DNA of 64,000 bases from an uncultured Methanosarcinales archaeon (GTDB taxonomy: Archaea; Nanobdellota; Nanobdellia; Woesearchaeales; DSVV01): the NCBI GenBank assembly GCA_964453185.1, contig CAYVNN010000002.1:55843-119842 (forward strand). Reading direction: 5' to 3'. The notes under the pieces are model-generated. The model had not been told where the DNA came from. It saw nothing but the letters and a program-made list of their open reading frames with translations, and did not search any database. Made by a program: the position numbers and the translations under genes. Below, piece after piece: positions 1,463 to 47,760 of this stretch (position 1 is the first letter of the stretch; each line of letters begins with the position of its first letter).

Positions 1463-1646
1463 GTAAAAAAACAATAAGAACTGGTTTATAAAGTTTATTT
1501 ATTTAGAAAATGATTAGAATTGCTATTGCCTTAAGGTCAAAATTTATTAGAAAAACACATAAAGTTCGTTATGTGGGGTTGCGCCCTACAGGCACATAGA
1601 ACTATAATATTCTAATAATGAAAATTTTGAAGGCATTATAGCAATT

Positions 1647-2639
1647 CTACATATTCTTATTTAGAGATTTCAGATAAGAATGTAATTTCTCTTTAACTTT
1701 TATTTTCAACTCTTGACCAATATCAAGAATATCAATCTCATTATCCCAATCAATATCAGGCAAAGTATTAATCTCACTAACTAGATTACGTCCTGCTAAG
1801 TTAGTTTGTTTATCTATCTCTTCTGTATATTTTGAACCAAATTGTTTAATTATTGGAAATTTGCTTACTGAATTAGCTCCAGCTTTAAACAACTCTGAGA
1901 CCCATTCAACCCTATCTGTCCATATTCCTGCCTCAATATCAATCTTTGGAAAAGCTATTCTTGTTGATGCAATCCATTTACAATAATAATCTAATTTAGG
2001 TGGTTCTTTATCTTCAAAATAAGTACCTTTTTGTGGATTTAATGAATAAAAATGAATCTTATCAATATTATGTTTTTCAATAAACTTTTTTAATAATTCA
2101 AAATCTTCAAAAGTTTCTCCTAAACCAATTATGATAGTAATTGCTTTCTTTAATCCAAGTTTTTCAGCAGTTTTAAGCATTTCTTCAAACGGCTTTATTG
2201 GTTTACTTGGACAAACAAAGTCATGTAATTTTGGTTCAACAGTTTCAATAGCTGCAACAACACCTTTGATATAAGGTTTGTATTCAAGAAGTTCATGTTC
2301 TGACAAAGGTCCAACATTAATATAGAACTTATCTCCATATATTATATAGATTAATTCTAACAATTTCTTAAATTCAACTTGAGAATAAGCCTTATGTCCA
2401 CCTGATAAAAAACCAAAGTCCCATTTTAACTTTTTACAAAGAATAGCTTCTGCTAACATACTTTCAGTTGTTCTTCTTGCTAATTTTCCTTTATTATGTT
2501 TACTTTGTACAGACATATAACAATACTTACAATCACCTATTTCACAATACCAACTAAAAAAAATAGCTCTTTCAAAATAAACATCTTTACTAAAGTTCCT
2601 TAGAAATATTTCATCTGCTTTCTGTATGTAGTTGTCCAT
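1647..2639 (-). CDS. radical SAM protein, biotin-synthase-like (BioB/ThiH/HydE/CofG group), with a non-canonical Cx4Cx2C cluster motif
   Basis: The translation contains WYCEIGDCKYCYMS; DCKYC matches the BioB-type motif but the first Cys is spaced one residue further away than usual. FLSGGH resembles a glycine-rich SAM-binding motif. Size 330 aa. Confidence 0.5.
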   Translation of the reverse strand: MDNYIQKADEIFLRNFSKDVYFERAIFFSWYCEIGDCKYCYMSVQSKHNKGKLARRTTESMLAEAILCKKLKWDFGFLSGGHKAYSQVEFKKLLELIYIIYGDKFYINVGPLSEHELLEYKPYIKGVVAAIETVEPKLHDFVCPSKPIKPFEEMLKTAEKLGLKKAITIIIGLGETFEDFELLKKFIEKHNIDKIHFYSLNPQKGTYFEDKEPPKLDYYCKWIASTRIAFPKIDIEAGIWTDRVEWVSELFKAGANSVSKFPIIKQFGSKYTEEIDKQTNLAGRNLVSEINTLPDIDWDNEIDILDIGQELKIKVKEKLHSYLKSLNKNM

Positions 2640-4917: not shown

Positions 4918-4959
4918 AAAAATAAGTTAACATCAATTGTTTAAAAAAGTTACTAAAAT

Positions 4960-5060
4960 AATGCCACCGCCTTGGCTCACTATTATAAATAATTTACAAT
5001 AGCGTCAGAATAAGATACGTACATAAAATAAATTTATAATGCCAGAGCCGCTGTGGCATT
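4960..5060. repeat. structured inverted-repeat element, copy A (ATAATGCCACCGCCTTGGCTCACTAT ... AATGCCAGAGCCGCTGTGGCATTAT)
   Basis: Terminal 10-bp stem ATAATGCCAC/GTGGCATTAT plus inner stem GGCTC/GAGCC. It shares the core with the copies at 17652, 23767, 28321, 43741 and 46133. It lies 3' of the minus-strand gene 5084..5956. Confidence 0.75.
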
Positions 5061-5083
5061 ATTAAAAAAATAAAATAAAAGAA

Positions 5084-5956
5084 TTATTTAAAATAATTCT
5101 TCTTATAATGAACAAAGTAATAAACCAATCCCATAATCACTAAAAGTAATAATACTGCACCAACAACCACTGCAACATTAGATTCTTCTTCAATCTCTGT
5201 TGGAATTGTTTCAGATAAATCTTCTGCAATATCATTTATTGATTTTTCTTCCACTTCCTCTAATTCTTCTTCAGAAGTATCTTCCTCTGGTTCTTCTGGT
5301 TCTTCTTCAAGAATTTCTTCTTCCTCTTCTACATCTTCTGTATCCTCTGTATCCTCTGTACTTTCTTCTGCTTCTTCAACATATTCTCGTAATTCTAAAT
5401 AAACCATTGTACTTGATGATCTTTCAAAATAAACAGATAAATCATTATCTCCATCTTGATCTAAATCAATATATCTTGTTTCCCCTTTCTCAATTGTTAA
5501 TGTCTGTGGATCACTTTCAATTGTTATTGTTGCAATTCGTTCCACAGTATCATAATCATCAACAGTTAATGTATGTGAATAATCATTATACTTAAAACGT
5601 GTATATTGGGTTGGTTTAAGATTTACAGTCTTTGATGTAGATGAAAGTGTAAATAATGTAGATGAACTACCGCCGCCACCTCCACCACTTGATGAAGTTG
5701 TTGTACTAGAATCATCTTCACTACTTGTTGTGCTTGAACTTGAAAAACTAGCAGTAAACTCATAACTAGCAGAAGTTGCACCACCTGAAGCTGATGATGA
5801 TGATGATGTATCTCCTTCATAAGTAGCAGATGACAAATCTCCAGCTACAGTCCCTGAACTAGTTGATTCAGCCTCATAACTATCTGAACTTACATCAGCC
5901 CCAAATACAAAAGGCAATGTAAACAAAATAACTAAAAAAACAATTAATTTTTTCAT
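5084..5956 (-). CDS. secreted acidic Ser/Thr/Gly-rich surface protein with a C-terminal TM anchor
   Basis: N-terminal signal peptide (MKKLIVFLVILFTLPFVFGA), a long S/T/G low-complexity region, an acidic E/D-rich tail and a C-terminal hydrophobic anchor followed by a KKNYFK tail. Confidence 0.5.
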   Translation of the reverse strand: MKKLIVFLVILFTLPFVFGADVSSDSYEAESTSSGTVAGDLSSATYEGDTSSSSSASGGATSASYEFTASFSSSSTTSSEDDSSTTTSSSGGGGGGSSSTLFTLSSTSKTVNLKPTQYTRFKYNDYSHTLTVDDYDTVERIATITIESDPQTLTIEKGETRYIDLDQDGDNDLSVYFERSSSTMVYLELREYVEEAEESTEDTEDTEDVEEEEEILEEEPEEPEEDTSEEELEEVEEKSINDIAEDLSETIPTEIEEESNVAVVVGAVLLLLVIMGLVYYFVHYKKNYFK

Positions 5957-17570: not shown

Positions 17571-17651
17571 AATATATCCCTCCTTAATTATAAGTATATA
17601 CTTAATATACCTCTTTATATAATTTGTGGTAAAAATAACAATACTAGCATT

Positions 17652-17753
17652 AAAACCAGCGCCTTGAGTCACTATCTTATTTCTTCATAACTACGCACTA
17701 AAATATGTTGCGTTAATGAAAATTCCTCATAATGCCAGACTCGCTCTGGTTTT
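17652..17753. repeat. structured inverted-repeat element, copy B (CATTAAAACCAGCGCCTTGAGTCACTAT ... AATGCCAGACTCGCTCTGGTTTTAATG)
   Basis: The terminal stem is changed on both arms (AAAACCAG/CTGGTTTT) and the inner stem is changed on both arms (GAGTC/GACTC) relative to copy A. The core CGCCTTG..CACTAT / AATGCCAGA..CGC is retained. Confidence 0.75.
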
Positions 17754-17774
17754 AATGATTCATTATTGACTTTA

Positions 17775-19112
17775 TCATATCGTAGCAGGTATAAACTTAC
17801 ATATTTCTGAAACACCTGTTCCCTGGATTGTCTTTCCATATATATTCAATGTTTTCAGTGTATCCATTGAAAAAGATCCACCATAAGGACATGAATCAGA
17901 TGGTAATGCACTTAATCCACAATATGGAACTGAATAAGTTGAATCACTATAACCATGAATTTCATAATTAACCAAGTCTCCTTTATTATAATTAATCTGA
18001 TGAACATTTTCACCTGCCCCACAAATATACATATTTCCATCAATATATATACAAATACAACCTTTCCATTTATTTAAATTAGCATCACTACAAGGACAAC
18101 CAGTCCCATAACCACCATCACTACTGCCGCCATCATTCGGATCATCAGTATAAACTGGACTTGATGCTTCATATCTTTCATCATCAAAAACACTTGTTAA
18201 TTCTCCACCAGCTTTATAGACACTAACCTCATGTTGAATTGTTTCAGAATATCCATACTCTAATTTAACTAAAACAGGAGTTTGATAAGCTGATTCTTCT
18301 CTCAATGTAAACTTACATTGAATAACTCCAACACCATTCACTAATTTAACTAAATTATCACCAGGGGTACATTGTGCATCCCCCAATCCTGTAATTTCCA
18401 TACTAACTTTTACATAATTCAAATCATCTTGATCAAAACTATACGGACAATTTTCAAATGCAGTTAAATCCTCTGGCTTGTAAACAATACCATTACCTTT
18501 ATTTTCAATTGTCATGATTAAATTAACTTCATTTCTTAATAATTCTGTTTGCACATTAGTAACTGCAACTGGTGCACCTTGTGAAGATAAATAAACAGGT
18601 TCAGTAGTACAAACTTCTCTCTGTTCATAATCACTATAATCATAAATCAAACAAACAACAGGATTAGCAATAGTTTCATAATTATAACATGTACTAAGTT
18701 GTATTGTTGCATCATAACTTTCTCCTAACTGAACTTCTAATGTTCCGGTCTCTTCAACCTCAACAAACTCAGAACTTCCTTCAGGTAAAAAAGGATCAAT
18801 ACCTTCTAACTCTGGCAAATGAATTTCTTCATCTTTAATTTTAATAACTTCTCTATCAAAACCAGATAATAATATCTTACCTTTTGCATCATCAAATGCC
18901 CCTTTATTACTTATCTCAATTTCTAAATTTAAATAATCATTATCATAAAATAATTCTTGTGTTGTTGCAAACTCTACCTCAATTCCATCTGTTCCAGAAC
19001 GATAATCTTCATCACCATAACCACTATTACTAAAAACACAACCTGTAGAAAATAAAACTACAATAATTAAAACAACATAAACACTTTTTCTAAACAAATT
19101 ATTTATTTTCAT
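17775..19112 (-). CDS. secreted lipoprotein (paralog 2 of 3)
   Basis: Signal peptide with an STGC lipobox-like motif. Shares SQGAPVAVT and LEYGYSETIQHEV blocks with the neighbouring genes. Confidence 0.5.
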   Translation of the reverse strand: MKINNLFRKSVYVVLIIVVLFSTGCVFSNSGYGDEDYRSGTDGIEVEFATTQELFYDNDYLNLEIEISNKGAFDDAKGKILLSGFDREVIKIKDEEIHLPELEGIDPFLPEGSSEFVEVEETGTLEVQLGESYDATIQLSTCYNYETIANPVVCLIYDYSDYEQREVCTTEPVYLSSQGAPVAVTNVQTELLRNEVNLIMTIENKGNGIVYKPEDLTAFENCPYSFDQDDLNYVKVSMEITGLGDAQCTPGDNLVKLVNGVGVIQCKFTLREESAYQTPVLVKLEYGYSETIQHEVSVYKAGGELTSVFDDERYEASSPVYTDDPNDGGSSDGGYGTGCPCSDANLNKWKGCICIYIDGNMYICGAGENVHQINYNKGDLVNYEIHGYSDSTYSVPYCGLSALPSDSCPYGGSFSMDTLKTLNIYGKTIQGTGVSEICKFIPATI

Positions 19113-20394: not shown

Positions 20395-23300
20395 TTACGA
20401 AGCCATTGAAGCAAACTGACCCAATGGTACATACTCAAATTGTACCTTTGTGTAATCAGGTAAAACAGTTCCTTCAACAGTATCTCTTTTTCTGACGTAA
20501 AATCCTTGTGAATCTTTTTCATCACACTGTCCCATTACATCATCATCTTCCCATTCAATTGTACAAAATTCTTTAAAATTACCCATATAATCTTTATAAT
20601 AAAGAAATATTTCATCATCTTCATACTTGGTCCAGATAAATCCAGTCCAAACTTCAACCTCATCTGCTCCTTCAATTAAATAATCTGAATTAATAACTGA
20701 ATATGCTAATATTTCATAATTAAAACTCATTAATTTCCCATCCTCTACCACAACATAATAACTAAATGCAGGATTATTATCAATATAAATCCATCTTTCA
20801 GAATATTCTTCTGATGTTGGAATTGTTCCTTCATAAACTGTTTCTGTTTGATTATTCGTGTAAATAAAAATCTTTAATTTCTTTGAATCATCAATACTAA
20901 TTATTAATTTAGTTCCTGATGTGTCTAAATCAATTGTTTCAGAAAAATCTTTTGTTTCACCATTAATTGTAAAACTTCCTTGTACTAAAAAGTTGTCCTC
21001 ATTTGTTTCTGATTTTAATTCTCCACTTTGCACAAGATTAAGCTCTTGAACTTTTTTATAATATGTTTCAACTAACTGAACATATAATCTAACCTGTTCA
21101 TAGTCGTCGTCATACTCACACCAATACCTTTTATCCCCTATACAATCTTGACTATCACAAAATACACCAACATATTCTCCATCTCTAATTCCACAAACAC
21201 CACCATAATATGTTGCTAACAAGTATTCTCTATTTAATTCAGGATCTTCTGAATCAAAAGGAATATTTTCATTATTTAATAAATCATACATTCTCCTTAC
21301 ACCAAACCTAATGTTTGTATCTGGATCAAATAAATCATAATCAACTATTCCCAATTCTGCAGCAATAACTGCAGCATCCTCTTCTGTTATCTGCATTAAT
21401 CCATTTGTTTCACCAAGAGGAGAAGATAATCCCACTGTTGTTGGATCATTCTTAGAACCTGCTGCAATCATTGCAATAACTAATTGTGGATCCATACCAT
21501 ACCTATCAGACCACTCTGAGATACTATTTGGACTTGAAGCATAATAAATAGTATAAATATCACTAACTAATTCATCTGGTTTTCCAGTATAAGATTCTTC
21601 TGATTTTGAATATGATGTTTCCGCATAACCTGCTGCAGTATCTGACTCAATCACCTTAACAGATGTGTCTTCAACAATTTTATAATCATACCTTGCTTTA
21701 ACAAAGAAATACTTTGTAGATATTGGTGTATTTCCTAATAGCTTATGTTCATCAACAATATCTAATCTACAATTGTATGAAACAAAATCTTCAATATCTT
21801 TGTAATGATTGGTGTTTCTTGAAGTGTCTAAATAATATGCATTATATCCATCTAACTCTTCTTGACATTTTAATAATAAGCATGCTCTCATTGTATCATC
21901 TGTAACTGCACCTTCATCTTCACATGCTCTATAGAAAGCAGTTTCATATTCTACATTACTACTTACACATCTATCCTCTGTATATTCTTTAAAATTAGTA
22001 TCTGAACAAGTATCAAGATCAAGTTCCATTGAATCTGGAATTATAACAACAATCTCTTTTATCTCTTCAATCATTCCATCCCAGTTTGTGTCAGCATCTA
22101 ATGTAATTCCTAATCTTGGTTTAACCTGATATGTTGAATCAATTCCTGTTAATGCACTATCTGGACCTATACCTAATCTAATTGGACCATTTGAATATCT
22201 TGCAACAGGATCTTTATCTTCCACTTGATACTGATCTAATAAATCAACACCATCTTTTAATGCAGAATTTAATCTATCTCTACTTGTAAAATATCTTTTA
22301 ACATAACCAATTGTTTCAAAATTAAACTTTGATTCAAATGTAACAGCATGTGAACCAGGACTTAATTTATTTTGAGGAATAGTACAATCAATTTCTTCCT
22401 GCTGCATATCATAAACTTCCATTGTTGCTGGATAAACTTCACCATAAACTTTACTTGTACCTTTTCCAGCATAACATGTTGTATTAATTTGCACCATATC
22501 ATCCAATGTTCTTGCCATTAATATTGCAAACACTGTAACTCTTTCATCTTCATAGAACTTTTCCTTTGAAGCCATAACATCTTCAATATAAACACCAAGC
22601 TGTTCTTCTTCATTCTCCTCAACCTGTCCAACATAATAGGTCGATGTGAGTTGTTTCTTTCTTATTTCCCAAATATCTCCAAACCTTGAAAATGCACCCC
22701 ATGTTGATGTAAATATTTGAGAACCACCTTCAACAAACTTATCCTTTAATACTAGAAATGCATCCCATCTTTCATAATCAGCTGTATCTAATTCTAAATC
22801 AGTAAAACCATACATTTGTCCCATACCATATGAAAGTATGATAAAGACCCACCACATAATAATTAAGAATCTTGATAACCTAATATACCATAACTTTGCT
22901 TCACTTCCTCTATAAACTGCATAGTAAATCCATGTTAACATAATAAATCCATTTGCTACAAACAAACGAATAAAATCAATAGATGCAATCATACTACTTG
23001 ATGCAACCATCCATGGAACAATAACCTCTATACAAAAACATACCAACATAATACGATACGTTTTTCCATTTCTCTCACTAGGATGAAAAATAAATAAGAT
23101 AGGCACAAGAATCATCCAAAATAAATTAAGAAAAATCCTATTTTTAATAGACAACCTTGATCCAATAACAACTGCATGATAAATACAAGCAAAAACAAAG
23201 AACCAAAATATACTAGAATTAGTTCTTCTTTCATCTTCATCTGCTCCACCTTTGAACAGATTAATGATTCCTTTACCACCATAATAAAAAGGAATAGATA

Positions 23301-23739
23301 AACCACGTGTAACAGCATTATGTGTTAAGAATTTACCAAAGCCTTTTGCTCTTTGCCATAATAAACTAGTTAATTGCTTTTTTCTATCTAACTCATCCAT
23401 TCCTTTAGCATGTCTTAATGCTTGAATCTTTGCAGTTAAATCAGAAAGATTAGCTTTATTTTCATTATGAGAATCTTTAAAATCTTTCCAAGGTTGTTGA
23501 AAAGTAGGCTTTACTGCATGTTCTTTCACATGAGGTAAGCCCAAATCTTTAGCCTTAGTCCAATTAGAATGAGCCATATCTACGGCTTCTGTTTTAGCAG
23601 CACCCCATGCCTTACCTGCTCCTGACTTAGTCTTACTCCAAGCAGCACTACTTACAGCTTTAGCTCCTGACTTAGTCTTACTCCAGGCAGCACTACCTAC
23701 AGCTTTAGCTCCTGCCTTAAATCCAGCCCATGATACCAT
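20395..23739 (-). CDS. giant (about 1114 aa) multi-TM protein with a large ectodomain containing an SLT-like (lytic transglycosylase) segment
   Basis: Start at the ATG at 23739 (MVSWAGFKAG), preceded by GAGGT. The longer ORF merely translates repeat copy C. Tandem AKAV(G/S)SAAWSKTKSG repeats are followed by about 6 TM helices. The ectodomain contains IAMIAAGSKNDPTTVGLSSPLGETNGLMQI, which resembles the SLT catalytic region but has Gly where the catalytic Glu is expected. Confidence 0.5.
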   Translation of the reverse strand: MVSWAGFKAGAKAVGSAAWSKTKSGAKAVSSAAWSKTKSGAGKAWGAAKTEAVDMAHSNWTKAKDLGLPHVKEHAVKPTFQQPWKDFKDSHNENKANLSDLTAKIQALRHAKGMDELDRKKQLTSLLWQRAKGFGKFLTHNAVTRGLSIPFYYGGKGIINLFKGGADEDERRTNSSIFWFFVFACIYHAVVIGSRLSIKNRIFLNLFWMILVPILFIFHPSERNGKTYRIMLVCFCIEVIVPWMVASSSMIASIDFIRLFVANGFIMLTWIYYAVYRGSEAKLWYIRLSRFLIIMWWVFIILSYGMGQMYGFTDLELDTADYERWDAFLVLKDKFVEGGSQIFTSTWGAFSRFGDIWEIRKKQLTSTYYVGQVEENEEEQLGVYIEDVMASKEKFYEDERVTVFAILMARTLDDMVQINTTCYAGKGTSKVYGEVYPATMEVYDMQQEEIDCTIPQNKLSPGSHAVTFESKFNFETIGYVKRYFTSRDRLNSALKDGVDLLDQYQVEDKDPVARYSNGPIRLGIGPDSALTGIDSTYQVKPRLGITLDADTNWDGMIEEIKEIVVIIPDSMELDLDTCSDTNFKEYTEDRCVSSNVEYETAFYRACEDEGAVTDDTMRACLLLKCQEELDGYNAYYLDTSRNTNHYKDIEDFVSYNCRLDIVDEHKLLGNTPISTKYFFVKARYDYKIVEDTSVKVIESDTAAGYAETSYSKSEESYTGKPDELVSDIYTIYYASSPNSISEWSDRYGMDPQLVIAMIAAGSKNDPTTVGLSSPLGETNGLMQITEEDAAVIAAELGIVDYDLFDPDTNIRFGVRRMYDLLNNENIPFDSEDPELNREYLLATYYGGVCGIRDGEYVGVFCDSQDCIGDKRYWCEYDDDYEQVRLYVQLVETYYKKVQELNLVQSGELKSETNEDNFLVQGSFTINGETKDFSETIDLDTSGTKLIISIDDSKKLKIFIYTNNQTETVYEGTIPTSEEYSERWIYIDNNPAFSYYVVVEDGKLMSFNYEILAYSVINSDYLIEGADEVEVWTGFIWTKYEDDEIFLYYKDYMGNFKEFCTIEWEDDDVMGQCDEKDSQGFYVRKRDTVEGTVLPDYTKVQFEYVPLGQFASMAS

Positions 23740-23766
23740 TATTAACCTCTTTTTTACAGCTATAAT

Positions 23767-23899
23767 AATGCCACCGCCTTGACTCACTATCTACTATATA
23801 GCGAAGGCGCTAAAAGTCTTTATACGTACAGCAGTGACTTAGTAGCATGCAATGCTACTACCTTCCCTCTACACATCGTGCCAGAGTCGCCGTGGCATT
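23767..23899. repeat. structured inverted-repeat element, copy C
   Basis: AATGCCACCGCCTTGACTCACTAT ... TGCCAGAGTCGCCGTGGCATT. Inner stem GACTC/GAGTC. The internal module TATAGCGAAGGCGCTAAAAGTCTTTATACGTACAG is shared with copy G. Confidence 0.75.
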
Positions 23900-24008
23900 A
23901 TTAACCTCTTTTTTAGTTTTACAACTACCTCAACTTAAATTCTAGAACTTCTTATATATAATATTTATGCATTTATGTATATAATAATTAAAACAAAAAA
24001 AGAAAATC

Positions 24009-25724
24009 TTAATACTCTTCTATCTCAACAACCAATTTTCTAATATCTAATGTTGTTAAATCTGGTTCAATCTTTATTGAATTACTTCCTTCTTCAACAT
24101 AATCAGTTATTGTTCTCATGTAATCATCACTATAAGTATCAACATATGATTTATGTCCATTAATGTAAACATGAGCTGCTTTATGTTCTGTATCATCTGC
24201 AAAATAAAGATATAATACAACTTCATAACCTGGTTTAACCTTCATCACTTCATCATATGAATCACTTCCTGTACTTGGACATTCTGAACTATAACTTCTT
24301 CCATTGCTATAATAAGTGGATGGACAATCATCACACTCATTTTCATTCAATGAAGTTTCACAAACATTTTCTAAACCATAGATTGGAACATCATTACACC
24401 AGAAATTATCTTCGTCTTTTTCAAAACAACAATCTCTGTCATAATACTCACTACACCCAGATGGACAATAATCATCATGATCATCTCCACATCTATCCTC
24501 ACATTCCTCTGGAGCATAACCATTATCATCTTCATAACCTGACACACATCTATCACATTTTGAAGTGTCTGCTTCTGTTACTGAAGCACATCTATCATCT
24601 TCGTCGTCAGGTTCAATGTCACACCAATAATTATTACTTCCTTCGAAGCAACAATCAATATCTAAATCTTCATCACATCCAACCGGACAATAATCATCAA
24701 CATCTCCACATTCTCTTTCTATTAAAAACTGTTCATGTTTGTATTCTTCTGAGAAGTAAAACAATGTTTCTGTTAAATCAAAATAATAAACAGGATAAGT
24801 TTGTTCTTTTAACTCAGTCTCCACCATTATTTGATAAATTAAATACGTTCCTTCATCTGTTTTAAAGATAACAGAATTATCACCTGCTGAAATCACACTT
24901 GGTGAAAACTCAACAATATTAATCTGACCACAATCAGGTATTGATGAATAAATATTTTCATTATTAACATAAATCTTTAAAGCTCCAACACCTCTTGGTG
25001 TACAGTCTGGGAAAAACTTCATTTTAACACTTTCAATATTAAATTTCTCAGTATCTGTAACAGTAAATGTGTTCTTACTTGATTGTTCACTAATATCTGT
25101 AACATCTCCTGTGATCTTAATACCTGTTAATTGATACTCATTTGTTGTCCAAAAAGCAAAACCAACATCACTTACTTCAAATGTTAACAAATTTTCATAT
25201 TCAAGGTTTCTATCTGATAAATCCAAAGGATCCATTATGCCAGTGACCTCATTATCAAATATTTTTTCTCCATTTAGATAAATAGACAATCTTCCTTTTG
25301 CTCTTTCTAAATTAAATGATAATAAAATATTTTCTGTATTTTCTAAGTCATCGATTGTAAAGGTTAAATTTCTAAACAATTTATCAAAAATTCCATTCTT
25401 AATATACAACGACTCTTCTGAAAAGAGTGTTTCTGCTTCTGTTACAGTATAAAGATTAACAGCCGATAATTGATGTTCATACTCACTAAATTTAAGATAA
25501 TCAATTCTTCCAGGTGATTCTTCCATTATTGTTTCATTATAAATAACAACATCACCATAATCAGTTGACCCTGAACTTCCTCCTGATGTAGATATAGATC
25601 CTGTTTCACCTAACAAATCTTGTCTAACATCTGCTGGTAAGAATAAGATATAAAGTATAAGCATACCTGCAACCAATGCAACTAGTGTAGCTGCTCCACT
25701 TGCTGTTTGACCTTTTTTAAACAT
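24009..25724 (-). CDS. pilin-like (class III signal peptide) surface protein with two Cys-rich modules
   Basis: N-terminal MFKKGQTASGAATLVALVAGMLILYILF fits the archaeal prepilin (KG|Q) class III signal. C-terminal duplicated module CGDVDDYCPVGCDEDLDIDCCFEGSNNYWCD / CGDDHDDYCPSGCSEYYDRDCCFEKDEDNFWCND. Confidence 0.55.
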   Translation of the reverse strand: MFKKGQTASGAATLVALVAGMLILYILFLPADVRQDLLGETGSISTSGGSSGSTDYGDVVIYNETIMEESPGRIDYLKFSEYEHQLSAVNLYTVTEAETLFSEESLYIKNGIFDKLFRNLTFTIDDLENTENILLSFNLERAKGRLSIYLNGEKIFDNEVTGIMDPLDLSDRNLEYENLLTFEVSDVGFAFWTTNEYQLTGIKITGDVTDISEQSSKNTFTVTDTEKFNIESVKMKFFPDCTPRGVGALKIYVNNENIYSSIPDCGQINIVEFSPSVISAGDNSVIFKTDEGTYLIYQIMVETELKEQTYPVYYFDLTETLFYFSEEYKHEQFLIERECGDVDDYCPVGCDEDLDIDCCFEGSNNYWCDIEPDDEDDRCASVTEADTSKCDRCVSGYEDDNGYAPEECEDRCGDDHDDYCPSGCSEYYDRDCCFEKDEDNFWCNDVPIYGLENVCETSLNENECDDCPSTYYSNGRSYSSECPSTGSDSYDEVMKVKPGYEVVLYLYFADDTEHKAAHVYINGHKSYVDTYSDDYMRTITDYVEEGSNSIKIEPDLTTLDIRKLVVEIEEY

Positions 25725-27327: not shown

Positions 27328-27347
27328 ACATTGACATATACAATAGT

Positions 27348-27368
27348 ACCACCGCCTTGGCTCACCAT
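27348..27368. repeat. solo 5' half of the structured element (ACCACCGCCTTGGCTCACCAT), 21 nt after the pelA stop
   Basis: Matches the 5' core of copies A-G. No 3' partner within 100 nt. Confidence 0.6.
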
Positions 27369-27418
27369 TTACTTTACATACCATACTTTTATATATACTA
27401 ACTATTTACTTACTATTT

Positions 27419-28306
27419 ATGGATATAAGAAATGTACAAAGAACAGGGAAAATGCACTATGTTTATTTACCTACAACATGGTGTAAAACAAACAATATTA
27501 GTGGAGATTCAAAGATAATTCTTGAGACAAATAGAGATGGAACATTAAAGATATTTCCCCAATTAGTAGAAAGAAAACCAAAAAAACTTAATTTAAAGAT
27601 TAACGAAGACGATGAAGATATTATCCATAAATTAATTATTGCATGTTATATGAGTCCTGCTTCTGCATTTAAAATTCAATTAGAAAAAAACATAGATTAT
27701 ACAAAATTACTAAATCAAAAAAAATTAGTTAGTTTAGAATTAGTTGAATTAAGTAAAGATAAAGTAATCTGTGAATCATCAGTAATTGCAGGAGATACTG
27801 CTTCTCTAATCAGAACAATGATTAGAAAAATTAGAAACCTATTCACAATAATGTTAAAAAACTATGACAAAGAATTAATTGAAAAATATGAAGAAGAAAT
27901 TGATAGAAACAGACTATTAGTTGAGAAGTCAGTTATAGGAAGTTTAACACATTGTAGAACTCACAAATTAAAAAACATTGATTTATATTATATTGGAACA
28001 ATTTCAAGAAATCTAGAAAACATTGTAGACTTAGCAATCCTTCTCGACAAAAAAGAAAATAAATTTATTACAAAACTTACAAAAATAATGGATAATCTTA
28101 AGAAATTAATGAAAGATATAAGTAATGAAGATAATCCATCTCCTAATTATAAAGATGCAATCAAATTCACAAAAGAAGTTTCAAAACTAGAAGATGAAAA
28201 AGTAACAAATGTTTCTACATATATTAAAAAGAGAATTAAAACAGGTTTTTCAGAAATCTCTGAGACAATTATGGATTGGGGCATAACTAAAGAATTAGAA
28301 AAGTAA
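27419..28306 (+). CDS. AbrB-like N-terminal domain + PhoU-like regulator
   Basis: N-terminal IRNVQRTGKMHYVYLPTTW resembles the SpoVT/AbrB N-terminus of archaeal PhoU-family regulators. The rest is helical and repetitive. Confidence 0.45.
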   Translation: MDIRNVQRTGKMHYVYLPTTWCKTNNISGDSKIILETNRDGTLKIFPQLVERKPKKLNLKINEDDEDIIHKLIIACYMSPASAFKIQLEKNIDYTKLLNQKKLVSLELVELSKDKVICESSVIAGDTASLIRTMIRKIRNLFTIMLKNYDKELIEKYEEEIDRNRLLVEKSVIGSLTHCRTHKLKNIDLYYIGTISRNLENIVDLAILLDKKENKFITKLTKIMDNLKKLMKDISNEDNPSPNYKDAIKFTKEVSKLEDEKVTNVSTYIKKRIKTGFSEISETIMDWGITKELEK

Positions 28307-28320
28307 TTCTCAAATACAAT

Positions 28321-28476
28321 AATGCCACCGCCTTGGCTCATTATCCTATCACAACATAGTATAGCGACAGGATATAGCAAAAGCAATTTTTGCTTTCTGC
28401 TTATTACGAAAAGCTTGCTTTGAGTATACGGTTTGTACATTATACATACACATTGAGTCAGAGCCGCAGTGGCATT
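28321..28476. repeat. structured inverted-repeat element, copy E (longest, 156 nt)
   Basis: AATGCCACCGCCTTGGCTCATTAT ... TCAGAGCCGCAGTGGCATTAT. Begins 15 nt after the stop of 27419..28306. Confidence 0.75.
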
Positions 28477-28565
28477 ATCTAGTTCTAACAATATATACAG
28501 TAATATACAAAAAACACACTTCTTCAGGGAAAACTTTAAAAATTAAAAAAAATTCAAGTATTCTA

Positions 28566-36791: not shown

Positions 36792-38159
36792 ATGAACAGA
36801 AGAACATTATTAGGATTATTAGGAGGAGCTGCATTAAGCTTAGCTGTACCAAGAATGGGCCTAGGTTCTGATCCACAAGATTTCACAATCAATTATGGAA
36901 CATTTGGTTTACATGACAGACAAACAGCTTTCTCATTATGTGATATGATTCAAGCAGAAGGTTCTGATTTTGATGATATAAAAGTTATTGAATGGGAACA
37001 AGGAAGTGAAAAAAGATACTCTGTCGCAATAGATGTAACTGGAACATTTACAGATGTTAGAGACAGAACAAATAATGACGAAGAATCATTAGCACAATTA
37101 ATTGACATGCACAATCCAGAAGGACATGACTTAAGTTTTTTACCTAGTTCTAGATATGATGGAAGAGACGTATACAAAGATGGAAGAGAAATAGTTAGTG
37201 ATTTACAACCAGTACCAACAAGACCACCAACAGGAAGAGTTCTTTACACAGATTTTAGAGATCCAGAATTCGAAAGACAAGTAGAACAAAGATTAACAAA
37301 CATTAGACCAGGTGGATCAAGACATGAAAAAATTACAAAAGGTATCAAAAGAGGATGGAAATATAAAGCATTAATCAGAGATACTGTTATTGCAAAAGGA
37401 CTTGATCCAGAATATGCTGATTTATTTTTCGCATTAATGATTCAAGAATCACTAGGAAATACAAGAGCAAGATCAAGAGCAGGTGCTGCAGGATTATTTC
37501 AAATCATGCCTGGCACAGGAAAAAAGGATCTTGGAATGACTATGAACCAATTCGTAGATTTAAGATATTCAATCAGAACATCAATAGAAAAAGGAATTCA
37601 ATATTTAGAAAAACCATGCCTTACACAAGCACAAGGAGATATAAGAATCGCTCTTGCTGGATATAATGGTGGCCCATATGGACTTGGCGATAAAATAAAA
37701 GATTTTAGAAGAAGAGGAAAATCAATATCATACAATAGCATAATGGCTGGAAGAAATAGTGAAAATAGTGGATACGCACCAGGAATTTATGCAATTCAAG
37801 CATATGTTACAGAACTAAGTTTACCTGATGAAAATGAAGTTGACTTCAGAAAAACTTGGGAAATAGCTACTATAACTCCAGGAAGTAGAGGATTAAAAAT
37901 GAGACTACCAGATGGAACAGAAGTTAATTTTACAGACAGAGCAGGAACAACAAATCTAGACAGATTAGCACAATCATACAATGCTCATGTCAAAAATGAA
38001 ACAGGTTTTGACATGAATACATCATATTTTAATGGAACAATTGGAAGAGAATTTAAAGACATGAATGCCCATGTTAAAAAAGATGGCACATTAGTTTCAG
38101 GAGTACCATATGTAATTTGGGTTCCTAAACCAGATGCTATTCAACAATTAACTAGATAA
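36792..38159 (+). CDS. Tat-secreted lytic transglycosylase (SLT domain) protein
   Basis: Tat-like signal MNRRTLLGLLGGAALSLAVP. ALMIQESLGNTRARSRAGAAGLFQIMPGTG is the SLT catalytic ES...GLxQ signature. The catalytic domain also carries GYNGGPYGL. Confidence 0.75.
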   Translation: MNRRTLLGLLGGAALSLAVPRMGLGSDPQDFTINYGTFGLHDRQTAFSLCDMIQAEGSDFDDIKVIEWEQGSEKRYSVAIDVTGTFTDVRDRTNNDEESLAQLIDMHNPEGHDLSFLPSSRYDGRDVYKDGREIVSDLQPVPTRPPTGRVLYTDFRDPEFERQVEQRLTNIRPGGSRHEKITKGIKRGWKYKALIRDTVIAKGLDPEYADLFFALMIQESLGNTRARSRAGAAGLFQIMPGTGKKDLGMTMNQFVDLRYSIRTSIEKGIQYLEKPCLTQAQGDIRIALAGYNGGPYGLGDKIKDFRRRGKSISYNSIMAGRNSENSGYAPGIYAIQAYVTELSLPDENEVDFRKTWEIATITPGSRGLKMRLPDGTEVNFTDRAGTTNLDRLAQSYNAHVKNETGFDMNTSYFNGTIGREFKDMNAHVKKDGTLVSGVPYVIWVPKPDAIQQLTR

Positions 38160-42652: not shown

Positions 42653-43738
42653 ATGAAAGGATTAGGTATAACAATCAAAGGTTTTGAAGAAATCAGCTCT
42701 AAAGAAGTCAAAGAATTGATCAAAACAGACTGTAAAATAGAAGAACATATTGTAATCTTTGAAACTAAACAAAAAGATCTTTGTAAATTAGCATACATGT
42801 CACAAAGTTTAATTAAAGTTATAGAATTATTAAAACAATTCAAAATAACAGATAATATAAAAGAAAAAGTTCAAAAAATTGATTGGAAGAAAATAATTAA
42901 AGACAAATCATTCAAAGTTAGATGTAAAAGACTTGGTAAACATGACTTTACAAGTCAAGAAATGCAAGGACAAATTGGCGAATATGTTTTAGACAAACAT
43001 AAAGCAAAAGTTTGCATGGATTCTCCTGATTTAATCATTTATTTATTCATAAACAATGAAAATTGTTATTTAGGTATTGATTATTGTGGATTTGATCTAA
43101 GTAAAAGAGATTATAAAATATTTAGTCATGCATGTTCACTAAATGGTGCAGTTGCATATGGATTAATAAAATATACAGGATACAATAAAAAAGGTTTTGT
43201 ACTTGATCCATTCTCAGGAATTGGAACAATACCTATTGAAACTGCATTCTTTTCATTAAACAAAAGCATTAATTTCTATAAAAAAGATAAATTTGCATTT
43301 AATAACTTTGTTGACATTGATTTATCTAAATTTGACAAAGAAAACAAACACAAAGATAAAATAATTGGTTATGATATATTATTAAGAAATATAGCAGCTT
43401 CAAAGAAAAATGCAAAGATTGGTGGTGTTAATAAAACAGTGGGTTTTTCTAGAATTGAAGTCGAATGGCTAGATACTAAATTTAAAGAACATGAGGTTGA
43501 TTTTATAATAACACATCCTCCAATTGATTCAAAAATAATTTCTGAAAAAGAAATTGAAAAAATATACAAAGAATTCTTTTACCAAGCAGACTATGTTCTC
43601 TCAAAAGGAGGAAGAATTGGAATATTATCAACAAAAGATAAACTCCTTAAGAAATGCACAGACAAATTTAAACTTGAAAAAGAAACAGAAGTAATGCAAG
43701 GCAAACAGAAGTTAAAGGTTTTAGTTTTTAAAAGATAA
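42653..43738 (+). CDS. THUMP-domain class I SAM-dependent tRNA (guanine-N2) methyltransferase (Trm14/TrmN-like)
   Basis: N-terminal ferredoxin-like/THUMP region, then the VLDPFSGIGTIPIE SAM-binding motif and a DPPY-like ITHPPID motif. Confidence 0.65.
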   Translation: MKGLGITIKGFEEISSKEVKELIKTDCKIEEHIVIFETKQKDLCKLAYMSQSLIKVIELLKQFKITDNIKEKVQKIDWKKIIKDKSFKVRCKRLGKHDFTSQEMQGQIGEYVLDKHKAKVCMDSPDLIIYLFINNENCYLGIDYCGFDLSKRDYKIFSHACSLNGAVAYGLIKYTGYNKKGFVLDPFSGIGTIPIETAFFSLNKSINFYKKDKFAFNNFVDIDLSKFDKENKHKDKIIGYDILLRNIAASKKNAKIGGVNKTVGFSRIEVEWLDTKFKEHEVDFIITHPPIDSKIISEKEIEKIYKEFFYQADYVLSKGGRIGILSTKDKLLKKCTDKFKLEKETEVMQGKQKLKVLVFKR

Positions 43739-43740
43739 TA

Positions 43741-43847
43741 TTAACACCACCACCTTGACTCTGTATTGGATAATCCACAAGATCGCACTAAAAGTCGCGT
43801 TGCGTTATTCTAACTTTACTAAGAGCTAGAGTCGCTGTTGGCGTTAA
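43741..43847. repeat. structured inverted-repeat element, copy F
   Basis: TTAACACCACCACCTTGACTCTGTAT ... CTAGAGTCGCTGTTGGCGTTAA. Begins 3 nt after the stop of 42653..43738. The terminal stem pairs better when read from the minus strand (G-U instead of A-C). Confidence 0.65.
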
Positions 43848-43859
43848 TTTAAAGAAATC

Positions 43860-44580
43860 TTAAGCAGCATATCTTCTAACATGTTCTAATGCCTTAGGTA
43901 AATGATCTACAATATCTGCTTTTTGATATGTTCTAACAGCATTTCTCTCAAAACTAGGTGTACTTGGTTTTGCTGCTAACATAATTCGCATTCCTATCTG
44001 AGCAGGCAATGCTAAATCCATCTCATAAATATCTCCAATAACAAGAACATTATGTGGCTTAAGTCCTTTTTTTCTCATTAATCTAGTCAAAGTATTCCAA
44101 TATAATTTTCGTCTTAAATAAACATCTCTTTCATAACCAACAGGCCGGATAGATTCATCAACACCATACCAACCTAGATCTAAAGCATTTTTTCTTGCAT
44201 TTCCTACAACAGGAATACTTGTATACTTATCACCTAACATAGCTAATTTTCTTTCCACACCTGCTATTCTAGAATTTGTAACAATAACAACATCATGCAG
44301 GAACAACAATTCTTCCATGCTCTTTCCAACCATAATTAAAAGGATTCTCTCTAACAATCCTTTCCATTCTGCTCCATCTTTGATCAAACTCTTGTTGACT
44401 TATTCCTAATGCTTCTTTAAAATCATCTTTAAAAGCAGGAACATAAGGAGCTGTTTCCTTAAAAACATCAGTCAAAGTTCCATCAAAATCAAGAACAACT
44501 AATCTAATTCCCTCAACAGAACCTACTATCGGAACTCCTCTTCTCAATCTAGCATCCATTAATCTTGTTAATCTACTCAT
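43860..44580 (-). pseudogene. HAD-family hydrolase split by a frameshift into two overlapping ORFs (44293..44580 and 43860..44387)
   Basis: The upstream ORF carries motif I VVLDFDGTLTD. The downstream ORF carries motif IV VLVIGDIYEMDLALPAQIGMRIML. The two frames overlap by about 95 nt. Confidence 0.55.
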
Positions 44581-45406: not shown

Positions 45407-45427
45407 AGAAAACCATCTCCAACACAT

Positions 45428-46132: not shown

Positions 46133-46242
46133 GCATTTGTACTAGCACCTTGACTCACTATTAAATAATACAGCGAAAGCGCTAAAAGTCTTATACGTAC
46201 AGAAAAACATACATTGTATCAGAGTCGTCCTAGTACAAATGC
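46133..46242. repeat. structured inverted-repeat element, copy G
   Basis: GCATTTGTACTAGCACCTTGACTCACTAT ... TATCAGAGTCGTCCTAGTACAAATGC. The terminal stem is a perfect 13-bp helix with a sequence unrelated to the other copies. Begins 13 nt after the cyclase stop. Confidence 0.75.
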
Positions 46243-47351: not shown

Positions 47352-47358
47352 TCATTAT

Positions 47359-47379
47359 CACCACTGCCTTGGTTCATTA
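47359..47379. repeat. solo 5' half of the structured element (ACCACTGCCTTGGTTCATTAT), 8 nt after the Lrp gene stop
   Basis: Matches the 5' core with 2 substitutions; no 3' partner. Confidence 0.5.
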
Positions 47380-47421
47380 TTCCAAAAACTTTAAAAACCA
47401 GTAAACTAAGAATCTTATACA

Positions 47422-47760
47422 ATGGTAAAAAAAGAGGTATTTATTAATAGAACTCCTAGTTTATTTGAGTTAATATTATTATTAGCTGGATTGGGTGTTA
47501 CTATTCTTGGTTTTTATCTCATTCATCAACAATACATACTTGATGGAGCAATATTATCATGGAATTTACTAATTAGCGTATTCTTATGGTTACTCCTAAT
47601 CATTGGAATAATATTAGTAGCATTGTTAGAAGATGTTAAAATGGAGCTTTCTACTGTAATAAAAGAACATGTTGAAGAAATTCGACTATTACAAGATGAA
47701 GATAAACTTCTTAAGAAAATAGCTAAAAATAGTAAAAAACCAAGGAAAAAGAGAAAGTAA
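47422..47760 (+). CDS. small membrane protein with 2 TM helices and a basic C-terminal tail
   Basis: Two hydrophobic helices, then KNSKKPRKKRK. Confidence 0.4.
   Translation: MVKKEVFINRTPSLFELILLLAGLGVTILGFYLIHQQYILDGAILSWNLLISVFLWLLLIIGIILVALLEDVKMELSTVIKEHVEEIRLLQDEDKLLKKIAKNSKKPRKKRK

What the first reader, a model, noticed from the sequence alone, without database searches (positions are those of the whole stretch)
27328..27418. Repeat elements sit in 3' regions of genes, mostly immediately after stop codons, in either orientation; two copies are solo 5' halves
Distance from the upstream stop codon to the element start is 15 nt (27419..28306), 3 nt (42653..43738), 13 nt (cyclase), 21 nt (pelA, half copy) and 8 nt (Lrp, half copy). 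Copies A, B and C lie 3' of minus-strand genes in inverted orientation. Copies A and B are about 20 nt from the stop; copy C is about 110 nt from the stop of 24009..25724. No copy is inside a gene, and none lies upstream of a gene unless it is also downstream of another. This fits either function as an intrinsic terminator or 3'-end stabiliser (archaeal terminators are normally just T-tracts, so this would be unusual), or a mobile element with target preference for gene 3' ends. The half copies (5' core only) would then be deletion remnants, or alternatively a functional minimal form.
Basis: seen in the sequence. Interest (0 to 1): 0.6.

Follow-up and report, generated by a model that had tools for sequence, protein, structure and literature searches.

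The report
Strand-polarised hairpin repeat in a DPANN archaeon
A small archaeon's genome carries nine copies of a roughly 110-160 base repeat that folds into a hairpin, sits just past gene ends and always points the same way along the chromosome, which looks most like a small mobile DNA element rather than a transcription terminator.

Summary
The window comes from a Woesearchaeota/Nanoarchaeota (DPANN) genome. It holds 9 copies of one repeat family: 7 full copies of 107-161 nt (one diverged) and 2 solo 5' halves. All are intergenic. Eight lie 0-20 nt from a stop codon, and none lies in a divergent promoter spacer (P=0.008).

- All 9 copies lie on the same DNA strand whatever the gene direction (P about 0.004). 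That strand is constant relative to a strong compositional asymmetry that does not depend on coding strand.
- The two ends form an 18-bp closing helix. Ten of its pairs show double-sided compensatory changes, and there is no G-U pair on the + strand.
- The family is absent from about 42 kb of syntenic DNA in the nearest available relative, including an empty orthologous site.

The bias towards stop codons disappears once 50 nt of promoter space are reserved (P=0.55). Exclusion from promoters therefore explains it without any 3'-end targeting.

Best reading (confidence about 0.5): a lineage-specific, non-autonomous hairpin element resembling REPINs, probably moved as single-stranded DNA in a replication-strand-specific way. 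The half copies would be truncated remnants. A terminator role is not supported. No transposase was found, and genome-wide statistics could not be obtained.

The parts
1516..1649 (+). c9: diverged full copy. P1 is TAGAATTGCTAT/ATAGCAATTCTA, and its 3' arm contains the stop codon (1647-1649) of the minus-strand radical-SAM gene.
   Evidence: Covariance model R1 scores 21 bits, E=0.007. As DNA it folds into a long hairpin with z=-7.0 (+ strand) and -7.45 (- strand). Sequence.
4957..5063 (+). c1: full copy. P1 is AATAATGCCAC/GTGGCATTATT. Its right end lies 20 nt from the stop of minus-strand gene 5084..5956.
   Evidence: R1 scores 97.5 bits. DNA fold z=-5.5 (+) and -5.9 (-). Core matches.
17648..17759 (+). 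c2: full copy with compensatory arms: P1 CATTAAAACCAG/CTGGTTTTAATG and P2 GAGTC/GACTC. It lies 15 nt from the stop of 17775..19112 (-) and 77 nt from the true start (17570) of the next gene.
   Evidence: R1 scores 106.7 bits. Pair table. Start codon established.
23763..23904 (+). c3: full copy with an extra internal palindrome (23841-23859). It lies 14 nt upstream of the start of 20395..23748 (-) and 104 nt from the stop of 24009..25724 (-).
   Evidence: R1 scores 104.9 bits. The orthologous spacer in the relative is 103 nt and empty. The internal palindrome is unique in the window.
23737..23756 (.). Left copy of a 20-nt direct repeat, CATTATTAACCTCTTTTTTA, flanking c3. It holds the ribosome-binding site and ATG of the minus-strand gene. 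The right copy is 23896-23915 and overlaps the last 8 nt of the P1 3' arm.
   Evidence: 20/20 identity, while the longest flanking repeat among 300 random controls was 13 nt. No other copy has a significant flanking repeat.
27340..27375 (+). h4: solo 5' half (P1 5' arm, CGCCTT, GGCTC, ACCAT). It starts 12 nt after the Pelota stop and is followed by a TATA-like box and the start of 27419..28306.
   Evidence: nhmmer 5'-core E=2.9e-8. No 3' core nearby. Fold z about 0.
28318..28478 (+). c5: longest full copy, with about 50 nt of extra internal hairpins. It starts 11 nt after the stop of 27419..28306.
   Evidence: R1 scores 85.2 bits. The internal insert is unique in the window.
43739..43850 (+). 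c6: full copy that fills the convergent spacer between the THUMP methyltransferase (stop 43738) and 43860..44387 (-). Its two A.C mismatches on the + strand become G.T on the - strand.
   Evidence: R1 scores 89.6 bits. DNA fold z=-0.97 (+) against -3.27 (-). It lies at the left edge of a 4-kb segment absent from the relative.
46133..46242 (+). c8: full copy. Its P1 arms (GCATTTGTACTAG/CTAGTACAAATGC) share only about 40% identity with those of c1 and c3, yet pair perfectly. Its interior core matches that of c3 at all but two positions. It starts 12 nt after the cyclase stop.
   Evidence: R1 scores 107 bits. Sequence. Pair table.
47353..47388 (+). h7: solo 5' half (CATTATCACCAC TGCCTT GGTTC ATTAT). 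It starts 1 nt after the Lrp/AsnC stop and is followed by the promoter region and start of 47422..47760.
   Evidence: nhmmer 5'-core E=9.7e-7. The covariance model gives only 15 bits, E=0.21, and that match runs into the next gene.

Best explanation
The elements are copies of a lineage-specific, non-autonomous mobile DNA repeat of the hairpin type. Its organisation resembles a REPIN: two inverted, REP-like end units separated by a variable spacer.

Shown:
- The two ends pair into a conserved closing helix. It consists of P1 (10-13 bp, variable in sequence), one mismatch, 2 bp, a 3-nt CTT bulge and P2 (5 bp).
- The helix is maintained by Watson-Crick compensatory changes only.
- The 3' end unit is itself a palindrome (X'-GAGCCGCN-rcX), and its arm X' co-varies with P1.
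- Copies are dispersed and intergenic, and were not found in the syntenic DNA examined from the nearest relative.
- All copies are in one orientation with respect to a strong replication-like strand asymmetry.

Inferred:
- The element is copied or moved as a folded single strand, in a way coupled to one replication strand. The better-folding strand lies on the presumed lagging-strand template, as for IS200/IS605 and REP/RAYT systems. An enzyme encoded elsewhere in the genome would do this.
- Copies survive only where they do not disrupt genes or promoters. In this compact genome that means the few bases just past a stop codon.
- The two 5' halves are remnants. A deletion removed the interior and 3' unit but could not remove the end that abuts an upstream gene's stop codon.
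- Any effect on the 3' ends of mRNAs would be a by-product.
For: - Real, over-represented family.
- Structure: 18 pairs, 97.2% of cells paired, 10 pairs with changes on both sides, none with a one-sided (G-U) change, and 0/500 shuffles reaching the observed values. Slid controls pair only 28-49%.
- RNase P RNA of the same genome has 15% G-U pairs in its minimum-energy fold. Watson-Crick-only pairing therefore points to DNA, or to a constraint on both strands.
- The only three non-paired cells are A.C on the + strand, which are G.T on the - strand.
- As single-stranded DNA every full copy folds into the same closure, with z from -3.3 to -7.5. The - strand is the more stable one in 6 of 6 copies.
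- Orientation: 9 of 9 on the + strand, while the adjacent genes are 5 on + and 4 on -.
- Strand asymmetry independent of coding strand: GC skew at third codon positions is -0.14 in + genes and -0.57 in - genes, and 34 of 53 genes are on the - strand. This makes the - strand the probable leading strand across the whole window.
- No flanking target duplication except at c3.
- Lineage-specific: no copy in about 42 kb of the closest relative, including the empty orthologous spacer of c3. c6, c8 and h7 lie in a 4-kb segment that the relative lacks.
- No conserved flanking promoter and no Rfam family.
- Placement is explained by exclusion from promoters.
- Published parallels: REPINs are inverted REP doublets forming hairpins in ssDNA, with common compensatory changes and singlets as defunct remnants (PMC3116915). 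IS200/IS605 elements act on the lagging-strand template through ssDNA hairpins (PMC6006769). A MITE census reported about 105 MITEs/Mb in one Woesearchaeal genome (PMC11602168), which matches the density here of 9 copies in 86 kb.
Against: - No HUH/Y1 transposase, TnpB, integrase or other candidate mobilising enzyme was found. Pfam was run directly on most window ORFs. For the rest of the 86 kb I relied on the precomputed Pfam hits in the gene tables.
- No insertion polymorphism is visible, because all metagenomic contigs of this organism are 100% identical.
- The REP hallmarks are missing: there is no conserved terminal sequence or GTAG/CGTC tag, and here the outermost arms are the least conserved part.
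- The 5' unit is not itself a palindrome.
- No conserved target tetranucleotide is evident at the left end.
- c3 carries a 20-bp flanking duplication, which HUH-type transposition does not produce.
- The leading-strand assignment rests on compositional skew and gene-strand bias only.
- The sample is 9 copies in 86 kb of one replichore. The copies look clustered (span test P about 0.03), so uniform orientation could partly reflect local spread.
Confidence: 0.5

Rival explanations
1. Classical MITE. The element would be a deletion derivative of a DDE-transposase insertion sequence, moved as double-stranded DNA through its terminal inverted repeats.
For: The ends are inverted repeats of about 24 bp with a 3-nt indel. 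The size (107-161 bp), intergenic location and multiple copies fit. An IS6/IS240-type DDE transposase lies about 2-3 kb left of the window. A census reports MITE-rich Woesearchaeal genomes (PMC11602168).
Against: There is no fixed-length target duplication; only c3 has a flanking repeat, and it is 20 bp. The outer arms, where a transposase would bind, differ almost completely between copies with nearly identical interiors (c3 against c8). The neighbouring IS has unrelated ends. Transposition as double-stranded DNA does not predict 9 of 9 copies on one strand.
Confidence: 0.12
2. Cis-acting RNA hairpin in 3' UTRs, acting as a terminator, 3'-end stabiliser or processing site.
For: Eight of nine copies start or end 0-20 nt from a stop codon. 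The hairpin is stable on either strand, so it could work in both orientations. REP, ERIC and Correia elements are known from my own knowledge to affect mRNA decay and termination.
Against: Orientation follows the chromosome, not the gene. No consistent T-tract follows the hairpin, and at c1 a T7 tract lies before it. The interior motifs are asymmetric and conserved, and would differ between the two orientations. The half copies cannot fold. The element is absent from the syntenic DNA examined in the relative. There are no G-U pairs, against 15% in RNase P RNA.
Confidence: 0.13
3. Structure-specific recombination sites resembling integron attC sites or a cluster of attC sites without an integrase (CALIN). 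They would mark the ends of gene cassettes or islands and be folded as ssDNA for a tyrosine recombinase.
For: The element is a hairpin with a conserved structure, variable arm sequence, a bulged triplet and a central part of variable length. All copies share one orientation. They sit immediately 3' of genes. In the + strand region the layout looks like cassettes: gene 27419..28306 lies between h4 and c5, cyclase is followed by c8, and Lrp by h7. h4 and c6 lie at synteny breakpoints against the relative. Integrons and attC clusters have been reported in Nanoarchaeota (PMC9668308).
Against: The R-box consensus (RYYYAAC...GTTRRRY, from my own knowledge) is absent in 5 of 7 full copies. The interiors carry conserved homologous motifs, unlike attC variable regions. 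Spacing is 1-15 kb, and the intervals hold several genes in both directions, including housekeeping genes (RFC, Pelota, H+-PPase, RNase P RNA). No integrase lies within 86 kb. The two species are so rearranged that breakpoints are frequent anyway.
Confidence: 0.1
4. A family of independently expressed structured small RNAs, either trans-acting or processed from 3' UTRs.
For: Covariation in the closing helix is strong. The interior motifs CTAAAAGTC and TACGTACAG and a short P3 helix show GCG/CGT against CGCA/TGCG swaps between subfamilies. The cores are GC-rich in a 30% GC genome.
Against: There is no conserved promoter or flank on either side. No Rfam family matches even at E<=10. No G-U pairs occur in 105 paired cells. 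The density of about 1 copy per 5-10 kb is far above that of known regulatory RNA families. The family is absent from the relative. Truncated copies are present.
Confidence: 0.07

Closest known systems
REPINs (REP doublets forming hairpins) of bacteria, mobilised by RAYT / TnpA(REP) enzymes
   Same: About 100-nt extragenic elements made of two inverted end units plus a variable spacer. They fold into a long hairpin in ssDNA or mRNA, compensatory changes keep the hairpin, and solo units ('singlets') occur as remnants (PMC3116915). No regular target duplication.
   Different: REPINs have not been reported in archaea (bioRxiv 10.1101/2021.07.10.451892), and only IS200-type Y1 enzymes are known there (PMC6006769). 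In REPINs the terminal REP 16-mers are the most conserved part; here the outermost arms are the least conserved and the sub-terminal core (CGCCTTGGCTCAC) is the most conserved. There is no GTAG/CGTC tag. Only the 3' unit is a palindrome. No RAYT was seen in 86 kb.
IS200/IS605-family elements and their small derivatives (PATEs)
   Same: No terminal duplication. They depend on DNA hairpins. Their orientation is tied to the replication strand because they act on the lagging-strand template (PMC6006769).
   Different: Those elements carry a separate sub-terminal hairpin at each end, no end-to-end pairing, and a conserved 4-5 nt target next to the left end. Here the two ends pair with each other and no conserved target is evident. 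PATEs are also several hundred nt long (from my own knowledge).
Bacterial hairpin MITEs transcribed with neighbouring genes (Correia/NEMIS of Neisseria, ERIC/IRU of enterobacteria, RUP/BOX of pneumococci). This comparison rests on my own knowledge.
   Same: 100-160 nt, long inverted ends, and inserted close to gene ends. They are co-transcribed, and their effect on mRNA fate depends on orientation.
   Different: Those elements have conserved terminal repeats and TA or other fixed target duplications, occur in both orientations, and are bacterial.
Integron attC sites, including archaeal ones (PMC9668308)
   Same: The structure is conserved rather than the sequence. They have bulged bases and a central part of variable length, share one orientation, and lie 3' of genes.
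   Different: No R-box consensus, homologous interiors, wide spacing across housekeeping genes, and no integron integrase nearby.

Membership tests
REPIN / REP-RAYT system | Two REP units in inverted orientation, separated by a spacer, together forming a hairpin | tested here: met
   The 5' core matches the reverse complement of the 3' core apart from a 3-nt indel. The closure P1+2 bp+P2 is predicted in all 7 full copies.
REPIN / REP-RAYT system | Each REP unit is itself a short imperfect palindrome with a conserved sequence (GTAG/CGTC-tagged in most families) | tested here: not met
   The 3' unit is a palindrome (ATAATGCCA-GAGCCGCTG-TGGCATTAT). The 5' unit lacks the inner arm. No conserved GTAG/CGTC tag is present, and the outer arms vary between copies.
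REPIN / REP-RAYT system | Compensatory changes preserve the hairpin, and solo units are decayed remnants | tested here: met
   Ten of 18 pairs have double-sided changes. Two solo 5' units, h4 and h7, carry more substitutions in the core than the full copies.
REPIN / REP-RAYT system | A cognate single-copy RAYT (Y1 HUH) gene, usually flanked by REPs | not testable with these tools
   No PF01797-type or other HUH protein was found in the window ORFs scanned directly or in the precomputed Pfam hits for the flanks. The rest of the genome could not be reached.
DDE-type MITE | Target-site duplication of fixed length flanking every copy | tested here: not met
   Only c3 has a significant flanking direct repeat (20 bp). 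The others are at chance level.
DDE-type MITE | Terminal inverted repeats conserved in sequence and shared with a parent IS | tested here: not met
   The outer arms of c8, c2 and c9 differ from those of c1, c3 and c5 while staying complementary. The ends of the nearby IS6-like element are unrelated.
IS200/IS605-derived element | Orientation tied to the replication strand, and no target duplication | tested here: met
   9 of 9 copies lie on one strand, and a uniform strand asymmetry independent of coding strand spans the window. No regular duplication. Only one replichore was sampled.
IS200/IS605-derived element | A separate sub-terminal hairpin at each end and a conserved 4-5 nt target abutting the left end | tested here: inconclusive
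   A local hairpin exists at one end only (the 3' core). Left flanks share at most a loose (A/T)TAC in 4 of 9 copies.
Integron attC site | R''/R' boxes RYYYAAC...GTTRRRY at the base of the hairpin | tested here: not met
   AAC/GTT is present only in c2 and c6, and absent in c1, c3, c5, c8 and c9.
Integron attC site | Tandem arrays of short cassettes in the same orientation, with an IntI gene or as a cluster of attC sites without one | tested here: not met
   Spacing is 1-15 kb across genes in both directions, including housekeeping genes. No integrase was found in 86 kb.
Intrinsic (hairpin + T-tract) terminator | A hairpin followed directly by a T-run on the transcribed strand of the upstream gene | tested here: not met
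   No T-run follows c5, c6 or c8. At c1 the T7 run lies before the element on the gene's strand.
Any Rfam RNA family | Match to a curated covariance model | tested here: not met
   At gathering thresholds only RNase P RNA matches in the window. At E<=10 nothing overlaps c3, h4 or c5.
Archaeal bulge-helix-bulge processing motif | Two 3-nt bulges on opposite strands separated by a 4-bp helix | tested here: not met
   There is one 3-nt bulge (CTT), then a 5-bp helix, then a 2x3 internal loop. The inner helix is weak and inconsistent (read).

The most novel reading that the evidence does not exclude
This would be the first archaeal counterpart of the bacterial REPIN/RAYT type of replicator. It would be a hairpin element in a DPANN (Woesearchaeal) genome that propagates as single-stranded DNA on one replication strand. 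Its outer stem is selected only for pairing, so the arms change in concert between copies. Its copies mark, and perhaps promote, the boundaries of lineage-specific gene insertions.
Probability: 0.3. Interest if true: 0.65.

Novelty: new variant of a known kind. Interest (0 to 1): 0.45.

Why it matters
REPIN-type hairpin replicators are described as absent from archaea, and mobile DNA in DPANN archaea is barely characterised. A strand-polarised hairpin repeat without target duplications, in a streamlined genome of about 1 Mb, would extend replication-coupled ssDNA mobility to this group. It would also give a marker of replication direction in genomes whose origins are unknown.

There are practical uses too. 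The elements cause wrong start-codon calls; two N-termini in public gene calls run through the 5' core. They are also a source of assembly breaks and rearrangements in metagenome-assembled genomes.

If the element instead turns out to act at the RNA level, it would be an unusual hairpin-based 3'-end signal in archaea.

Tried and rejected
- Genome-wide statistics could not be done. Both metagenome-contig scans found nothing real, although the pattern does match the organism's own contigs. A viral-contig scan found nothing.
- I tried to reach other parts of the genome through a possibly multi-copy IS transposase. It is single-copy, and its 62-66% homologues lie on virus- or plasmid-like contigs of other samples that carry no elements.
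- blastn against the phage and plasmid collections gave no match.
- A literature search for the core sequence gave no hit.
- Antisense complementarity between the element core and RNase P RNA (shared 8-10-mers) is at chance level.
- A rearrangement between Pelota and an Lrp gene mediated by the elements was rejected, because the Lrp genes compared are 26% identical paralogues.
- h4 and c5 as a direct duplication flanking a cassette: h4 is no closer to c5 than to c3 or c1, so this stays unsupported.
- Insertion of the core into pre-existing terminator palindromes: the window has no general population of 3' hairpins and no solo 3' palindromes.
- The bulge-helix-bulge, K-turn, H/ACA and C/D box readings do not fit the sequence on inspection.

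Full report
**Organism and setting.** The window has 30% GC and carries an archaeal RNase P RNA at 47790-48108. Its Pelota and THUMP-methyltransferase proteins have their best named relatives in Candidatus Woesearchaeota / Nanoarchaeota metagenome bins. Every metagenomic contig of this organism that I could fetch is 100% identical to the window, so there is no strain variation to use. Contigs that extend the window give 12.6 kb more on the left and 9.7 kb on the right. In total 86 kb of this genome were examined.

**Checking the observation.** The 5' core CCACCGCCTTGGCTCA (up to 3 mismatches) occurs 7 times against 0.03 expected. The 3' core TGCCAGAGCCGCTGTGGCATTAT occurs 4 times against 0 expected.
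- Profile HMMs of the two cores add the copy after the cyclase gene, c8 at 46133-46242.
- A covariance model built from six full copies (R1) adds a diverged seventh full copy, c9 at 1516-1649 (21 bits, E=0.007).
- Two loci carry only the 5' core and no detectable 3' core: h4 at 27340-27375, which is the finding's own interval, and h7 at 47353-47388.
- Two ORFs that seem to overlap copies are over-extended. The true starts are ATG 17570 and ATG 23748, each behind a strong ribosome-binding site.

All nine copies are therefore intergenic. Eight are in spacers between tandem genes and one fills a convergent spacer. None is in the 11 divergent spacers, which hold 41% of the non-element intergenic DNA (P=0.008). 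Eight of nine have one end 0-20 nt from a stop codon.

All nine copies are on the + strand. The two-sided probability of this by chance is 1/256. 'Either orientation' holds only relative to the neighbouring gene. Five copies (h4, c5, c6, c8, h7) abut the stop of a + gene with their 5' end. Four (c9, c1, c2, c3) face the stop of a - gene with their 3' end.

- The outer helix P1 (10-13 bp) is followed by one mismatch, then 2 bp, a 3-nt CTT bulge and P2 (5 bp).
- On the six-copy alignment, 97.2% of cells are paired and 10 of 18 pairs show changes on both sides. No pair shows a one-sided change. No shuffle reaches these values, and slid controls pair only 28-49%.
- The three unpaired cells are all A.C, which would be G.T on the opposite strand.
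- The RNase P RNA of the same genome has 15% G-U pairs in its predicted fold.
- With DNA parameters every full copy folds into this closure on both strands, with z from -3.3 to -7.5. The exception is the + strand of c6 (z=-0.97). The - strand is the more stable one in six of six copies.

It reads X'-GAGCCGCN-rcX. Its arm X' is a direct repeat of the P1 5' arm and changes with it: in c8, TTGTATCAG against TTGTACTAG. The 5' core equals the reverse complement of the 3' core apart from the CTT indel. The element is thus an inverted doublet of a REP-like unit around a variable interior. That interior holds conserved motifs (CTAAAAGTC, TACGTACAG) and, in c3 and c5, unique extra hairpins.

**Arms and interiors evolve differently.** c3 and c8 have almost identical interior cores, differing at two positions. 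Their P1 arms share only about 40% identity, yet each pair of arms is perfectly complementary. The arms therefore change in concert or are exchanged as modules. What is selected in them is pairing, not sequence. This argues against recognition of the ends by a transposase as ordinary terminal inverted repeats.

**Evidence for mobility.**
- The closest relative available (Pelota 71% and THUMP 52% identical; GCA_964452935.1 and JGI Ga0118720) shares gene order over two blocks. It has no copy in about 42 kb, even with the covariance model run without filters.
- The spacer orthologous to the c3 site is 103 nt and empty. It holds a single copy of the ribosome-binding-site and start region that is duplicated around c3.
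- In the relative, RNase P RNA follows THUMP after 35 nt. In the window, 4 kb carrying c6, c8 and h7 lie between them. c6 and h4 sit exactly at synteny breakpoints. The two genomes are so rearranged that I do not weigh this heavily.
- Apart from the 20-bp repeat at c3, no copy has a flanking direct repeat above chance.
- No copy occurs in the 22 kb flanking the window. The nine copies span 46 of the 86 kb examined, which is mild clustering (P about 0.03 by a span test that I calculated by hand).

**Relation to replication.** Separating coding from strand effects gives a large strand component. GC skew at third codon positions is -0.14 in + genes and -0.57 in - genes. Intergenic GC skew is -0.07 and AT skew +0.13. 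Thirty-four of 53 genes lie on the - strand. By the usual rule (leading strand rich in G and T, and genes co-oriented with replication; this is my own knowledge) the - strand is the leading strand over the whole window. The parental - strand is then the lagging-strand template. The strand of the element that folds better, the - strand version, would lie on the lagging-strand template in all nine copies. That is the arrangement described for IS200/IS605 elements, which excise from and insert into the lagging-strand template as ssDNA hairpin substrates (PMC6006769). This step is inference. Only one replichore was sampled, and the origin is unknown. An Orc1/Cdc6-like gene lies about 5-6 kb left of the window, but next to an IS and possibly inside an integrated element.

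**Why the copies sit next to stop codons.** Within tandem spacers the copies are stop-proximal (Fisher P=0.006 under uniform placement). If the 50 nt upstream of the next start codon are reserved for promoter and ribosome-binding site, the bias disappears (P=0.55). TATA-like boxes are visible in exactly these reserved stretches. Avoidance of divergent spacers has the same explanation. c3 is the one copy placed close to a start codon, and it lies between two probably co-transcribed genes. The ribosome-binding site and ATG are duplicated there, so the gene keeps its translation signals. No targeting of 3' ends is needed.

**The half copies.** Both are 5' units. Both abut the stop of a + strand gene (12 and 1 nt), and both are followed directly by the promoter region of the next gene. 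A deletion starting inside an element and running to the next promoter would leave exactly this. The end touching the upstream gene cannot be lost. This predicts solo 3' units next to stops of - strand genes elsewhere in the genome. In REPIN systems, solo units are likewise interpreted as defunct remnants (PMC3116915).

**Comparison with known systems.**
- The organisation matches REPINs in several ways: an inverted doublet, a hairpin in ssDNA or mRNA, compensatory changes, singlets and an extragenic location (PMC3116915).
- It fails two REP hallmarks, namely conserved terminal units with a GTAG/CGTC tag and a palindromic 5' unit. No RAYT could be looked for beyond 86 kb.
- REPINs are stated not to have been found in archaea (bioRxiv 10.1101/2021.07.10.451892). 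Only IS200-type Y1 enzymes are known there (PMC6006769).
- A DDE-type MITE is disfavoured by the missing target duplications and the non-conserved outer arms.
- attC-like sites are disfavoured by the missing R-box consensus, the homologous interiors, the wide spacing across housekeeping genes and the lack of an integrase, although archaeal integrons do exist (PMC9668308).
- A terminator or stabiliser is disfavoured by orientation, the lack of T-tracts, absence in the relative and the unfoldable half copies.
- No Rfam family matches.
- A MITE census noted one Woesearchaeal genome with about 105 MITEs per Mb (PMC11602168). That is the density seen here, so elements of this general kind may already have been counted, though not described.

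**Verdict.** The best explanation is a lineage-specific, strand-polarised hairpin repeat that resembles REPINs and moves through single-stranded DNA (confidence about 0.5). The mobilising enzyme, the genome-wide orientation pattern and any expression remain untested.

Noticed in passing
window 23737-23756 and 23896-23915: A perfect 20-nt direct repeat flanks copy c3 and duplicates the ribosome-binding site and ATG of the minus-strand gene 20395..23748. The right copy overlaps the last 8 nt of the element's stem. No other copy has such a repeat, and the relative has a single copy of this sequence.
   Followed up: partly
window 17571-17672 and 23749-23787: Public gene calls and the longest-ORF rule start two minus-strand genes at GTG codons inside the element's 5' core. 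The real starts (ATG 17570, ATG 23748) lie behind strong ribosome-binding sites, so the annotated N-termini are wrong by 34 and 13 residues.
   Followed up: yes
whole window: There is a strong strand asymmetry that does not depend on coding strand. GC skew at third codon positions is -0.14 in + genes and -0.57 in - genes, AT skew is positive, and 34 of 53 genes are on the - strand. The whole window appears to lie on one replichore.
   Followed up: partly
L139 5292-10870 (about 2-7 kb left of the window): An Orc1/Cdc6-like gene (AAA_22 plus a weak Cdc6_C match) lies behind a 630-nt spacer, near a gene pair encoding a PolB-exonuclease-like protein and an IS6/IS240 DDE transposase. That gene pair recurs at 62-66% identity on virus- or plasmid-like contigs from other samples. 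The region could be a replication origin or an integrated element.
   Followed up: partly
window 43739-47789 against L140 11078-11112: In the nearest relative, RNase P RNA follows the THUMP methyltransferase after 35 nt. In the window, 4 kb lie between them (HAD-like gene, a 180-aa gene, cyclase, Lrp/AsnC and a 112-aa gene), together with three of the nine repeat copies.
   Followed up: partly
window 12336-14909, with 13031-13096: The replication factor C large subunit is interrupted by an intein with a LAGLIDADG domain. The gene also contains an exact in-frame 33-nt tandem duplication.
   Followed up: no
window 23618-23707: A 45-nt tandem repeat (96% identical) lies near the N-terminus of the 1117-aa protein with an SLT lytic-transglycosylase domain. 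A second SLT-domain protein is at 36792..38159, an unexpected domain for an archaeon without murein.
   Followed up: no
window 59770-60724: An internal repeat of about 234 nt (3-4 units, 61-82% identical) lies in the 584-aa minus-strand protein 59046..60800, which has no Pfam match.
   Followed up: no
window 23841-23859 and 28376-28401: Copy-specific small palindromes are inserted in the interiors of c3 (AGTAGCATGCAATGCTACT) and c5 (AGCAAAAGCAATTTTTGCTTTCTGCT). Each is unique in the window, and their origin is unknown.
   Followed up: partly
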